48,297 nucleotides of DNA from Promethearchaeia archaeon. Its GTDB lineage: Archaea > Asgardarchaeota > Lokiarchaeia > Sigyniarchaeales > SOKP01. The translations under genes and the position numbers were made by a program. This document shows, piece by piece, positions 14,200-19,031 of the stretch (position 1 is the first letter of the stretch; each line of letters starts with the position of its first letter). The notes beneath the pieces were generated by a model that was not told where the DNA came from, did no database searches, and worked only from the letters and a program-made list of their open reading frames with translations. Location of the stretch: contig JAHQWJ010000032.1 in NCBI GenBank assembly GCA_029856125.1, positions 1 to 48,297 on the forward strand. Direction: 5' to 3'.

Positions 14200-16086
14200 T
14201 TAAGTTAATGATTGAATTAAATTTTTAAATATATTATAATCGTTGATAAATTCATAGGAAAGCACCAAATTAACTATTTTAAAGTGGTTTCCGTAAAAAA
14301 TACTTGTTAAGGTATCAACCGTTTTTCCACCCTTAAAGAGATCATCGTCTATTATCACATTAACGCTATCTTTAAGATTACTTATTATCTTCGATTTAAT
14401 ACCATTCAAATCTTCTGAAATGGACGATAATATAACAGTGGGTTTTCCTAAATACGGTATGAAGTCTAAATTAAAAATTCTTACTTGATTTGTTATTCTT
14501 TCAGGTTGAACAAATCTTTTTAATGTATGTTGAATGATCCTTACTTCCTCTTCGTCGTGATCGCTTATAGAAGGATAGATATAATAAGCAATGGATTTAT
14601 CGGAATTGTACGCTAACTCCGAGTAAACTCTATCGATTAAAGGGAAAATACTAAAATCATAACTGAATAAAGAAATGAGGGCGATATTAAAATTAAAATT
14701 GCCTGCAAGGGCGTTATTACTTACATTTCCTCCAACGAGAGAAAAAGTTTCTATCTCATTTGATATTTTAGATGTATATGTATTCATTACATAGAATTGA
14801 GAAAATTGTCCAATAGGTTCTACTTTAGATTTTTTTTCTTCAACAATCTCATAGAGTTCATTGAAAAGATCCTTTGTGATGTTTTCTCTAAGCTCTTCTG
14901 AGCTTATGTCTCCGATTAGGCTATCCGCTGTTTCCGGACAATCTAATTCAGCCAATAAACAAATGGTTTCTTTAAAATATCCGTAAGCAGGATTGTTATA
15001 TTTGCGTTCTGATAATATTATCTTATTTGAGTTTAGAATAATCTGAATGATTTGTTTTAATATGGCGAGAATCAAGTCGTCCTTCTTTTCTTCATGGATC
15101 TTTTTTATAATATTGAATAAAACTTTGATTTTAAGAATCTCATCTTCAATTTGCTCTACAAGCTTAAGAGCGATAGATGTTTCTTTTTTAAGAGAAGAAT
15201 AAAGCATATCGAGTACTATTTTTTCCCTTACCGTTGGCTCTTCAATTAGGGAGAGAATATTGGGAATTTTATCTGGATTAACATTAATATGATCAAAGGC
15301 TATGTTTTTTATTATCTGATTTTTTTTTTTAAAATCTTTTAAATTTTCAATTATCTCTAAGCTCTCATCCAAATTTCTAGAAGCGTTAGCCCTAATTAGG
15401 GCATCGTGTAGTTCTATCCTTTCTTTCTCCACAGAAATCTTTAGTGCAGTTTCAAGAGCTTTTACAAATTCACCATTAGAAATATAAGATTTTGCAAGCA
15501 TTTTAAGCTTGTCATCAATTTTCCCGCGAACTAATTGAGCATTGGGTCTTAGCAGGCCACTACTGGAGGATGAATCGTTGGGTTGTTGTTCAACAGCTAT
15601 TTTAAATAACTCTTTAAGTTGGTTCTCAACATTCTTAGTGTTATTTTTAATAGATGGAGAAATATAATCGTTGATATTAAATATATCACTTTCAATGGGT
15701 TGAAGAAATTGTTTATTCTTCAAAATTGAGTTGATTTTGCTCGTAGAGATAGTTTTTCTTATATGTTGAGCCTTCTCGACATACTCTACTAGTTTCATCC
15801 AATATGCATTGATTGTCAGTTTCCCAAAACCGTCTCTTACAGGCGTTAACATTAAATTTATCGTTTTAGCTTCGCTCGGAGCAAATTTAACCTCGTCTTT
15901 AAATTCGCTTGGTTTGACATCGATCTCGAGATTTTCGCCCTCAAAAACGAACTTAAAGTGTTCGTCTTTGTTAGATTGATTAACGATTTCAAGGGAAATA
16001 GGATTTTCAACATCAGGTAGTAATAGATTTTGAGGGAATTTTTTCACGCTTATCGAAATAATGTGATCGGGTTCCTGAGTAGACAT
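14200..16086 (-). CDS. Hypothetical protein: N-terminal Ig-like beta domain, helical-repeat middle, alpha/beta C-terminus
   Basis: 628-aa ORF co-oriented with, and 28 nt from, the GCS2 gene; domain calls are from sequence pattern only. Confidence 0.6.
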   Translation of the reverse strand: MSTQEPDHIISISVKKFPQNLLLPDVENPISLEIVNQSNKDEHFKFVFEGENLEIDVKPSEFKDEVKFAPSEAKTINLMLTPVRDGFGKLTINAYWMKLVEYVEKAQHIRKTISTSKINSILKNKQFLQPIESDIFNINDYISPSIKNNTKNVENQLKELFKIAVEQQPNDSSSSSGLLRPNAQLVRGKIDDKLKMLAKSYISNGEFVKALETALKISVEKERIELHDALIRANASRNLDESLEIIENLKDFKKKNQIIKNIAFDHINVNPDKIPNILSLIEEPTVREKIVLDMLYSSLKKETSIALKLVEQIEDEILKIKVLFNIIKKIHEEKKDDLILAILKQIIQIILNSNKIILSERKYNNPAYGYFKETICLLAELDCPETADSLIGDISSEELRENITKDLFNELYEIVEEKKSKVEPIGQFSQFYVMNTYTSKISNEIETFSLVGGNVSNNALAGNFNFNIALISLFSYDFSIFPLIDRVYSELAYNSDKSIAYYIYPSISDHDEEEVRIIQHTLKRFVQPERITNQVRIFNLDFIPYLGKPTVILSSISEDLNGIKSKIISNLKDSVNVIIDDDLFKGGKTVDTLTSIFYGNHFKIVNLVLSYEFINDYNIFKNLIQSLT

Positions 16087-16245: not shown

Positions 16246-17001
16246 TTACTTCCCCTTTCTTCTAACTCTATTACAAAAATCTTTTATATCTTCTATAACC
16301 ATCTCCTTCGTATAATCAGGCCATAAATCTGCTCTAAACTTGAATTCTGCATAAGATGCGTCCCATAATAAAAATCCCGAAATTCTTGCACCATCGTCCA
16401 TTCCCGTTCGTATGATATAATCTACTTCAGGAAAATTTCTAGTATAAAGGTGGTTTTTAATCATTTCTTTATTAATATCTTCTTCCTTTACGCCATTCTT
16501 AATAATATTTTTTACTGCGTCTACGATCTCTTCTTGTCCATCGTACATTATGCATAAATTAATGAAATTTTTATCGTTATCTTTTGTAAAATCAATCAAC
16601 TCTTTAATTTTATTTCTAACTTCGTCTGGTAATAAATGAATACGCCCGATTACGTTAAAGTTGACTTTTTCTTCTTTAACAGTCGCCTCTTTTACGACCG
16701 CATCAACAGCATCCAAAATAATTCCAAAAATATACTTAATCTCCACTTCGCTTCTTTTTCTTAAGTTCTCAAGTGACAAAGCGTAGATGCTTAAATAATG
16801 TATACCTGCTTCAAAAAAATCAAAAAGCCTCTCTTTTAAATTTTGGTACCCAATAAGATGACCAACATTAGTCCCAAGCAGGTTTTTTACTGCCCAACGG
16901 CGGTTTCCGTTTAAAAGTAGAAAATACTTCTAATTTCCGTCCAAAATTAAACCAACATGTTTGGGCAATTTTTTTTCTGCTATTCCTTTTAATTCTTCCA
17001 A
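16246..17001 (-). CDS. uppS: cis-prenyltransferase (UppS family), interrupted by a 30-nt insert at 16905-16934
   Basis: From TTG 17001: ...LPKHVGLILDGN*KYFLLLNGNRRWA...GHLIG...SIYALSLENL...DYIIRTG...RISGFLLW...YAEF...LWPD. Removing 30 nt gives HVGLILDGNRRWA and a 241-aa protein. Confidence 0.9.
16905..16934 (-). other. Candidate bulge-helix-bulge intron (or hairpin insertion with 7-bp duplication) in uppS
   Basis: Minus strand: UGG ACGG AA^A UUAGAAGUA UUUUC UACUUUUAA ACGG AA^A CCG. 9-bp hairpin, in-frame UAG at 16930-16932, direct repeat ACGGAAA at 16934-16940 and 16904-16910. Confidence 0.6.
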
Positions 17002-17402
17002 AATGTCATAACTCTTAAAGAGATTTTTACGATGAAGACTGATTATATATTTATAATTATTGTGAATCCCATATTATAATTTTGATTTCTATGTAGAATT
17101 GTCAGTATATTAGGTATCTTTCTTATAATCTGTTTTTACGAATAATAATTAGAAATTTTAAGAGGAGAAATACTATAAAAATCTATTCTAAAAGCTGAAC
17201 CATATTAATCCGAGTATGAACTGTTGAAAGTAGTAAACAAAGAGGAATTTTTAAATAAACACCTACTTTTCATCAATAATATTTAACTAGAAAAATGTTT
17301 AACTAAATAGTTGAAAAAAAAAATTATAAATACCAACGGTTAAACTTTAATTGGTTAACAGTTTACACCAATAGAATATTTTTTGATTAGGAGAGCGTTT
17401 GT

Positions 17403-19031
17403 ATGATTAACAACGAGTATTTATTTAGCAATATAGGTATTGATAGCGTAGGTTTTCACACACCGAGAGCCTATATTAAATTAGATGACTTAGCACATAA
17501 GCGGAAAATAGATCCAAATAAATTTAAGAAGGGTTTAATGGCTCACGAGATGAGAGTTCCAGAAGTTAACGAAGATATCATCTCTTTAGGTCTGAAAGCA
17601 GGATATCAAGCTTTAACAAAAGGTGGTATCGATCCTAAAAGTATAGACGCATTGTTCGTAGGAACAGAAACGATTACTTACGCTGTAAAGAGTGTTTCTA
17701 ATATTTTTGCTGAATTGTTAGAGATATCTCCGAACTCCATTACGCAAGATACCTACAACGCTTGTGCGGGTGGTACACTAGCCCTCCTCAATGCTGTTGC
17801 ATTAGTCGAAAAAGACATAATAAAAAAAGCGCTTGTCATAAGCGCGGACATATCATCCTATCACCTGGGCTCTCCAAGCGAGGCAACTCAAGGTTCAGGA
17901 GCGGTTGCTTTAGTAATTTCAAAGAACCCTAGGGTTGCGTCTTTCAGTGAGAAGTTCGGTAAAGTATCGGGAAATGTTGATGATTTTTATCGCGCAGCTA
18001 ACGAAACAGAAGCTAAGGTTTTTGGTCACTATTCAGTAAAAACATATCTAGATTTCCAATTAAAGGCTTACGACGATTTGATAAGTAATATTGGCGACTT
18101 CCACGCAGATTATTATACTTTTCACGCCCCTTTCTCAAAGTTACCTATTAAAATCATGCAAGAGATAATACAAAAGCGATGGATAAGACACATCACTGAC
18201 CTTCCCAAATTAGAGAAAAACCAAATAAAATCCTCAATTCTTAAAAAACTCGATGCTTTTATGCACGACATTACTGTATTACCCGAGTGGTTATATTTGA
18301 AACTAAAAGAAAGAGGGTATTCTTCAGAAACATTAGAAAGCCTCTCGCATAAACTTATAGGTAATTTCACATCGAAAGTTCTTCCCCAATTAAGAGTCCC
18401 TTCCCATTTTGGAAATATGTATAATGCTTCAATTTGGGCTCAGATTATTTTTATATTAGAAAATTACGCTCGAATTAACGACACGATATATTTCGGTTCT
18501 TATGGTTCTGGTGCTACATGTATTTCTGGTTTGTTAAAAGTTAACAACAGATTTAAAACTATTGTGAATAAAGGCCCTCAAATAAGCGATTTTATCAAGA
18601 TTAAAGAGTTAAAAACCATCCAGGAGTATGAGAAGATAAAATCAGGTGAATTCTCACCGAAAACAGTTCTAGGCAAAATAGTCGAGCACGAAAAAAATAA
18701 CAACCGAGGTTTTACGCTTCATTTCTGCGACGAAGGATGCATACTTCCTAATATTGAAGGCTTAAACCATTGTCCAAAAGGTCATTCGGGCTTCCACGAA
18801 AAGTTTTTTCCATTGTATGCGGTGCTAAAGTCAGAACCTATAGCAAATCCTAACGAGAACAACCTAAACTACCTTTATAACGGATTTGTGAGGATTGCGG
18901 GAGATGTAAAACCAGGTTCTTGCTTAGAATACGAGATCAGGCGGCTTGTGAATAAAGATGAAACCAACTTCAACGCGATTGGGTTGTTAAATTGGAGCCC
19001 AATGTACTACGAAACCCAGAACATTTTTTAA
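17403..19031 (+). CDS. mvaS: HMG-CoA synthase with C-terminal DUF35-like (Zn-ribbon/OB) extension
   Basis: VGTET, NACAGGT (catalytic Cys), EATQGSGAVA, FHAPF, GNMYNAS, SYGSG; extra C-terminal domain with CDEGC...CPKGH. Confidence 0.9.
   Translation: MINNEYLFSNIGIDSVGFHTPRAYIKLDDLAHKRKIDPNKFKKGLMAHEMRVPEVNEDIISLGLKAGYQALTKGGIDPKSIDALFVGTETITYAVKSVSNIFAELLEISPNSITQDTYNACAGGTLALLNAVALVEKDIIKKALVISADISSYHLGSPSEATQGSGAVALVISKNPRVASFSEKFGKVSGNVDDFYRAANETEAKVFGHYSVKTYLDFQLKAYDDLISNIGDFHADYYTFHAPFSKLPIKIMQEIIQKRWIRHITDLPKLEKNQIKSSILKKLDAFMHDITVLPEWLYLKLKERGYSSETLESLSHKLIGNFTSKVLPQLRVPSHFGNMYNASIWAQIIFILENYARINDTIYFGSYGSGATCISGLLKVNNRFKTIVNKGPQISDFIKIKELKTIQEYEKIKSGEFSPKTVLGKIVEHEKNNNRGFTLHFCDEGCILPNIEGLNHCPKGHSGFHEKFFPLYAVLKSEPIANPNENNLNYLYNGFVRIAGDVKPGSCLEYEIRRLVNKDETNFNAIGLLNWSPMYYETQNIF

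What the first reader, a model, noticed from the sequence alone, without database searches (positions are those of the whole stretch)
16900..16945. Candidate bulge-helix-bulge mRNA intron splitting the catalytic motif of uppS
Seen: the conserved HVGLILDGNRRWA motif reads DGN-TAG-KYFLLL-NGNRRWA. The minus-strand RNA is UGG ACGG AAA UUAGAAGUA UUUUC UACUUUUAA ACGG AAA CCG. This fits BHB geometry: outer helix UGG/CCG, central 4-nt ACGG/ACGG (two C-G pairs flanked by A.G mismatches), two 3-nt AAA bulges and a 9-bp inner hairpin. Cutting after the second nucleotide of each bulge removes exactly 30 nt (16905-16934) and regenerates GAC GGA AAC CGC (DGNR). The rest of the gene shows no decay. Established: archaeal EndA cuts BHB motifs at those positions, and protein-gene introns of this type are known mainly from crenarchaeal cbf5. 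Inference: an EndA-spliced mRNA intron in a probable Asgard lipid-carrier gene, possibly a regulatory gate. Alternative: a hairpin insertion with 7-bp target duplication that inactivates the gene.
Basis: partly seen in the sequence, partly recalled or inferred. Interest (0 to 1): 0.92.

Follow-up and report, generated by a model that had tools for sequence, protein, structure and literature searches.

The report
tRNA-type mini-intron in Asgard uppS
The only gene for the lipid-carrier enzyme UppS in this Loki-type Asgard archaeon is broken inside its catalytic motif by a 30-base insert shaped like a tRNA intron; the insert is conserved in 50 related copies, so the messenger RNA is very probably cut and rejoined by the tRNA-splicing enzymes, something the papers I found report inside a coding sequence only for cbf5.

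Summary
Observation confirmed. A 30-nt insert (16905-16934, minus strand, in-frame TAG) splits the DGNRR motif of the genome's only uppS. Two assembled public DNA runs carry it unchanged. The same site holds an insert of exactly 30 nt in 50 related loci (34 distinct junctions, two genera), all Promethearchaeota where named. Seven of 16 bulge-helix-bulge (BHB) pairs change on both sides, including one exon-intron and one exon-exon pair. Across variants only three cut positions restore DGNR, and the BHB cut is one of them. Interrupted genes stay under purifying selection (dN/dS about 0.09). The 7-bp repeat is not conserved, so target-site duplication with inactivation fails, and matched-codon bypass is impossible in 13 of 34 variants. 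The genome encodes a two-subunit EndA with a crenarchaeal-type specificity loop, plus RtcB. Three of its histone genes carry canonical BHB inserts. Weak points: this genome's central helix has only 2 of 4 standard pairs, the BHB fold is about 7 kcal/mol above the predicted ensemble, and no RNA covers the junction. Best reading: an EndA/RtcB-spliced mRNA intron (0.85). A regulatory role is untested. The scan noted this insert earlier on other genomes.

The parts
16935..17001 (-). uppS exon 1 (67 nt, from a probable TTG start; ends in the codons for D-G and the first base of N)
   Evidence: TTG at this position in all g1 insert carriers listed (start inferred from conservation)
16905..16934 (-). 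30-nt insert, predicted BHB intron, with in-frame TAG
16246..16904 (-). uppS exon 2 (659 nt including the stop)
   Evidence: TIGR00055 uppS 155.6 bits, over the cut-off; dN/dS about 0.09
16941..16943 (-). outer exon helix h, 5' strand (pairs with 16901-16903)
   Evidence: 100% paired, middle pair G-C in 26 and U-A in 10
16937..16940 (-). central helix H, exon strand ACGG
   Evidence: second pair C-G in 26 and U-A in 10; third pair G-C invariant
16934..16936 (-). 5' three-base bulge; predicted cut between 16935 and 16934
   Evidence: third base is freely variable (A12 T12 C8 G2) and falls inside the intron
16911..16933 (-). inner intron hairpin, 9-bp stem with 5-nt loop
   Evidence: 94% of cells paired, 5 of 9 pairs with a change on both sides
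16907..16910 (-). central helix H, intron strand (ACGG here; ACGT, ACAT, CCAA, CCGT and others in relatives)
16904..16906 (-). 3' three-base bulge; predicted cut between 16905 and 16904
   Evidence: W-A-A in all 34 variants
16901..16903 (-). outer exon helix h, 3' strand
17403..19031 (+). divergent HMG-CoA synthase, first gene of the adjoining mevalonate cluster (context, not part of the intron)

Best explanation
The uppS pre-mRNA folds around the 30-nt insert into a relaxed bulge-helix-bulge. The cell's two-subunit (alpha-beta)2 tRNA-splicing endonuclease cuts after the second base of each bulge, RtcB joins the exons, and the restored D-G-N-R-R frame gives the cell's only cis-prenyltransferase. 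Unspliced RNA ends in a 23-residue peptide. Shown: the insert, its conservation, the covarying structure, selection on the gene, and the presence of the enzymes. Inferred: folding into the BHB in vivo, cleavage, ligation and translation of the spliced RNA. The intron is most likely a tolerated passenger that comes and goes; any control of lipid-carrier synthesis by splicing is speculation.
For: (1) 50 of 183 parsed uppS loci carry an insert at this site, always exactly 30 nt, and the rest have none. (2) 36 distinct rows: 88% of cells paired, 7 of 16 pairs change on both sides, 0/500 shuffles reach this and every slid register is at 56% or less. This includes the exon-intron central pair (C-G 26, U-A 10) and the exon-exon pair (G-C 26, U-A 10); G127, nested among U-A carriers, has the C-G/G-C form on both sides. 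(3) G011 has a fully canonical 4/4 central helix; the two middle pairs are Watson-Crick in all 34 variants, and end mismatches are always purine-purine. (4) Only cuts after base 5, 6 or 7 restore DGNR in all variants; the BHB cut is 7, and by inspection 5 and 6 give no central helix in this genome. (5) Median dN/dS is 0.087 (g1 with insert) and 0.105 (g28 with insert) against 0.122 and 0.094 without. (6) Single copy, also in G110, a genome in one contig. (7) EndA alpha subunit keeps Y141, H149, R173, K180, W197 and K58/R60, which align to K44/R46 of the crenarchaeal specificity loop (PMC3241643); a beta-like subunit and RtcB are present. (8) Three histone genes of this genome carry 29-30-nt inserts with 4/4 central helices; removal at BHB cuts restores the histone motif, in one case matching an intact neighbour paralog, and one insert is a frameshift.
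Against: No spliced RNA was seen. In this genome the central helix has 2 of 4 standard pairs, below even the 'relaxed' class (3 of 4) of bioRxiv 10.64898/2026.10.13.758758; 14 of 34 variants are like this and only 1 is 4/4. ViennaRNA puts the BHB about 7 kcal/mol above the ensemble; a rival fold pairs the exon ACGG with exon 2. Most variants are 2-8 kcal/mol above. The covarying sequences are related, so the exon-intron switch is about two independent events, one of which could be recombination. No tRNA intron with the same mismatch pattern was found among the few that ARAGORN could parse.
Confidence: 0.85

Rival explanations
1. Ribosomal bypass (T4 gene 60 type): the ribosome takes off at the Gly or Asn codon before the stop and lands on the matching codon 30 nt on, helped by the hairpin.
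For: In this genome GGA...GGA and AAT...AAC are 30 nt apart with a stop and a hairpin between them; the gene 60 anatomy is from my own knowledge.
Against: 13 of 34 variants have no synonymous take-off and landing pair at all. Bypass does not explain exon-intron and exon-exon covariation, and G105 has no stop.
Confidence: 0.04
2. The insert is removed precisely but not by EndA/RtcB (another nuclease, or deletion in the DNA between short repeats in part of the population).
For: The BHB is weak here (2/4 pairs). This genome has a 7-bp direct repeat, and precise intronless sisters are common.
Against: The repeat is missing in most relatives while the BHB geometry is kept. No 30-nt deletion appears in DNA contigs of X3 or X5 (contigs drop rare variants).
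Confidence: 0.05
3. A hairpin insertion with target-site duplication that inactivates uppS (pseudogene).
For: In-frame stop and 7-bp direct repeat in this genome.
Against: No other copy. Every full-length carrier locus gives the normal open frame once the insert is removed. dN/dS is about 0.09 with dS above 1 between carriers. No second copy of the insert within 7 mismatches in the genome.
Confidence: 0.02
4. Stop readthrough with a 10-residue loop, or translation of exon 2 alone as a non-catalytic subunit.
For: The insert keeps the frame; G105 has no stop.
Against: Stops differ (TAG, TAA, TGA) and some variants have two. The encoded residues vary freely at the would-be Asp and Gly positions. 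No conserved start codon lies in the insert, exon 1 is conserved, and there is no catalytic partner in the genome.
Confidence: 0.03

Closest known systems
cbf5 pre-mRNA intron of Desulfurococcales and Sulfolobales (PMC2738675)
   Same: Short insert in a coding sequence at the catalytic-Asp motif; mostly unconventional BHB; cut between the second and third bulge base; hetero-oligomeric EndA; homologous introns with losses in some lineages.
   Different: Other gene (lipid-carrier synthase), Asgard host, fixed 30-nt length with a conserved stem, often only 2 of 4 central pairs, patchy even between sister species, and several other genes interrupted in the same genome. cbf5 splicing was shown by cDNA and cleavage; here it is not.
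BHB intron in the 5' UTR of Haloferax HVO_1309 (PMC7714728)
   Same: mRNA substrate of EndA.
   Different: Untranslated region; it does not break a reading frame.
Asgard tRNA introns (bioRxiv 10.64898/2026.10.13.758758)
   Same: Asgard archaea, BHB geometry, repeated gains, two EndA paralogues.
   Different: tRNA only; the paper has no occurrence of 'mRNA' or 'cbf5'.
T4 gene 60 translational bypass (own knowledge)
   Same: Matched codons, stop and hairpin in this one genome.
   Different: Matched codons are absent in 13 of 34 variants.

Membership tests
EndA-spliced BHB intron | two 3-nt bulges on opposite strands, 4 nt apart, whose cuts restore the product | tested here: met
   cut after base 7 restores DGNR in all 34 variants
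EndA-spliced BHB intron | canonical 4-bp central helix | tested here: not met
   2/4 in this genome; 4/4 in 1, 3/4 in 19, 2/4 in 14 of 34 variants. So not a canonical BHB here; only the degenerate form is claimed.
EndA-spliced BHB intron | flanking helices h and h' | tested here: met
   h 100% and h' 94% paired, with covariation
EndA-spliced BHB intron | EndA able to take relaxed substrates, and a ligase, in the genome | tested here: met
   two subunits, catalytic residues, loop Lys and Arg aligned to K44/R46; RtcB. Sequence only; substrate range not measured.
EndA-spliced BHB intron | cleavage by EndA and a spliced transcript in vivo | not testable with these tools
   no RNA contig covers the junction
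cbf5 intron family | host gene is cbf5 | tested here: not met
   host is uppS; works like the cbf5 intron but is not a member of that family
Transposon or MITE footprint | conserved target-site duplication and further copies | tested here: not met
   repeat not conserved; no other copy within 7 mismatches
Translational bypass element | matched take-off and landing codons | tested here: not met
   absent in 13 of 34 variants
Rfam families | match to a curated model | tested here: not met
   0 matches at E up to 1
cis-prenyltransferase (UppS) | TIGR00055 over cut-off and D-G-N-x-R motif | tested here: met
   motif aligns with solved UppS structures for an intronless relative; motif present here only after excision

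The most novel reading that the evidence does not exclude
Loki-type Asgard archaea run a real mRNA-splicing system on their tRNA machinery: a set of 29-33-nt introns in core genes (uppS, several histones, others) that spread or are lost precisely between species. The weak purine-purine-flanked central helix of uppS may be tuned so that EndA activity limits lipid-carrier synthesis.
Probability: 0.3. Interest if true: 0.92.

Novelty: new variant of a known kind. Interest (0 to 1): 0.76.

Why it matters
In the papers searched, cbf5 is the only archaeal coding sequence with an EndA-spliced intron, and none reports mRNA introns in Asgard archaea. If confirmed, the closest relatives of eukaryotes splice a single-copy lipid gene and histone mRNAs without a spliceosome, comparable in chemistry to HAC1/XBP1-type splicing (own knowledge). 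It would also mean that such genes are annotated as truncated or missing in these genomes. The natural series of junctions, from 4/4 to 2/4 central pairs, makes EndA substrate tolerance directly testable.

Tried and rejected
RNA evidence: no RNA holder listed. The two runs labelled metatranscriptomic (probably DNA) cover 16358-16634 and 17297-17400 but not the junction; no inference either way. Motif-only genome scan: 390 candidates for 3/4/3 geometry against 390-420 for six decoy geometries, so no enrichment and no census. ARAGORN found only 17 tRNAs, too few introns to survey helix mismatches. Rfam: nothing. Promoter and terminator scan: at chance level, and a bacterial model. A shifted BHB register would excise 32 nt and break the frame; rejected by inspection. 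Stop codon as a selected feature: rejected as unproven, since it is part of the stem and G105 lacks it. One pattern hit in a Rhodospirillales contig is an unrelated protein, chance. A literature search for UppS active-site mutants gave nothing useful; the catalytic role of the D-G-N-x-R motif rests on my own knowledge and on its invariance. G091 and the second G098 match could not be parsed at the motif; G031 and G033 end at contig edges.

Full report
Observation. The minus strand reads H-V-G-L-I-L-D-G-N, stop, six residues, N-G-N-R-R-W-A. Deleting 16905-16934 gives a 241-codon frame from a probable TTG at 17001. Exon 2 scores over the TIGR00055 uppS cut-off. The gene lies head to head with the mevalonate cluster. 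It is the only cis-prenyltransferase in a 99% complete genome. Contigs from two DNA runs of different studies span the insert without a difference, though either may be the source sample.

Distribution. PF01255 searches of the genus, the family and a draw of relatives showed a group of genomes whose open frame starts just inside the motif. I fetched them with intact relatives and 66 metagenome loci. Of 183 loci parsed, 50 have an insert at this site, every one 30 nt, and 133 have none. The 50 are 13 loci in 12 genomes of this genus, 10 genomes of a second genus of the family, one probably misbinned copy (G070) and 26 metagenome contigs, some of which may be the same organisms. A sequence-blind pattern for any 30-nt insert ending in A at this site over all GTDB species gave 24 hits: 23 with contig lengths equal to loci already held, most titled Promethearchaeota and a few under other submitter labels, and one chance hit. 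None of the 24 genomes from other families has a shortened frame. G110 is a single chromosome whose only uppS is interrupted.

Structure. On 36 distinct rows the proposed structure is 88% paired, 7 of 16 pairs change on both sides, no shuffle reaches this and slid registers fall to 56% or less. These sequences are related, so the shuffle figure is not a probability. The informative changes are the central exon-intron pair (C-G in 26, U-A in 10) and the outer exon-exon pair (G-C in 26, U-A in 10), which switch together; G127 sits among U-A carriers with the other form on both sides. The third base of the 5' bulge is free and the first base of the 3' bulge is A or T, both inside the intron under the BHB cut. 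The cuts that restore D-G-N-R in all 34 variants are after base 5, 6 or 7, and the BHB rule gives 7. Exon codons at the junction are nearly fixed in carriers (AAC 16 of 16) but not in intronless relatives (AAT 39 of 42), as expected if they pair, though kinship inflates this.

The weak point is the central helix. Here it has two Watson-Crick pairs between two A-G mismatches. Across variants it is 4/4 in 1, 3/4 in 19 and 2/4 in 14; mismatches are always purine-purine and the middle two pairs never break. ViennaRNA puts the BHB about 7 kcal/mol above the ensemble in this genome, where a rival fold pairs the exon ACGG with exon 2, and 2-8 kcal/mol above in most relatives. The model does not credit A-G pairs or enzyme binding, but inefficient splicing is possible. 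The 7-bp direct repeat that suggested a target duplication is a feature of this subgroup only.

Selection. With junction codons left out, median dN/dS is 0.087 and 0.105 for carriers in the two genera against 0.122 and 0.094 for intronless genes (Nei-Gojobori, pairs not independent). dS between this genome and the far carriers exceeds 1, and all full-length carrier loci are open after excision. A dead gene would not look like this, so the insert must be removed or skipped.

Machinery. The genome encodes two EndA-family proteins and RtcB. The C135 protein keeps the residues that align to Y125, H133, R157, K164 and W183 of the best structure match, and K58/R60 align to K44/R46. PMC3241643 gives these numbers for Aeropyrum pernix EndA and shows that K44 in the crenarchaeal loop confers broad specificity. 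The C56 protein lacks the catalytic His and weakly matches a beta-subunit model. A tRNA-Ser(CGA) gene has a canonical-site intron with only two central pairs, of another pattern. Following a lead from earlier notes I checked the histones myself: three of six carry 29-30-nt inserts near the same C-terminal site, each with a 4/4 central helix, and removal restores the histone motif; the 29-nt one shifts the frame and has an intact neighbour paralog.

Rivals. Ribosomal bypass fits this genome alone, but 13 of 34 variants offer no synonymous take-off and landing codon. Readthrough would need three different stops, sometimes two in a row, and the insert is not conserved as protein. DNA-level deletion needs the repeat, which is not conserved.

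History. On a tree of uppS without the junction codons, carriers of this genus form one clade (UFBoot 96-100). In the second genus they are scattered, with fully supported carrier and non-carrier sisters (G127/G150, G131/G123). One clade for all carriers is rejected (AU p = 8e-5); the pattern needs 7 gains with no loss, or 1 gain and 14 losses. The inserts are clearly homologous, so separate gains would mean transfer by recombination. Several intronless members of the second genus have the AAC-AGA codons of their carrier relatives, which hints at precise loss. This is a single-gene tree and I cannot choose between the two. Either way the intron is dispensable, which speaks against an essential regulatory role.

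Comparison and verdict. It works like the crenarchaeal cbf5 intron (PMC2738675) but is not a member of that family, and it is not a canonical BHB in this genome. PMC7714728 names cbf5 as the only earlier mRNA case and adds one in a 5' UTR; the 2026 preprint on Asgard tRNA introns does not mention mRNA. The library is limited to open-access papers. The scan had noted this insert on other genomes; those notes are not independent support. Verdict: real, conserved, very probably an EndA/RtcB-spliced mRNA intron (0.85), awaiting RNA proof. Interest 0.76.

Noticed in passing
L194 (G000 C8, about 64406-64435), L197 (C82, about 17966-17995), L198 (C138, about 48942-48970): Three of six histone genes carry 30, 30 and 29-nt inserts with 4/4 BHB central helices near the same C-terminal site; L193 is an intact paralog of L198. 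The C8 case was not among the earlier notes I was shown.
   Followed up: partly
L137 (G105): The uppS insert has no in-frame stop (TGG for TAG); unspliced RNA would give a full-length protein with a broken motif.
   Followed up: partly
L136 (G127) and L186 (G150): G127 has junction flanks of the first-genus type inside the second genus, and its sister lacks the insert; compensation or local recombination.
   Followed up: partly
L134 (G070 C1 end): A first-genus-type interrupted uppS at a contig end in a genome that also has its own intact copy; probably bin contamination.
   Followed up: partly
G000 C28:7582-7685: tRNA-Ser(CGA) with a 21-nt canonical-site intron whose central helix has only its two outer pairs.
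   Followed up: partly
G000 C126, minus strand near 286188: 29-nt candidate with 4/4 central helix, 3-bp outer helix and 9-bp stem in the motif scan; not tested by homology.
   Followed up: no
L144 (G076): uppS frame 8 residues longer than usual after the motif, with no insert at the DGN site.
   Followed up: no
L046 (G019): PF01255 match in two pieces within a 303-residue open frame, implying an in-frame insertion of about 60 residues.
   Followed up: no
   Followed up: partly
whole genome: ARAGORN finds only 17 tRNA genes in a 99% complete genome, consistent with heavily interrupted tRNAs.
   Followed up: no
window 14200-16086: 628-aa gene downstream of uppS with no NCBIfam match.
   Followed up: no
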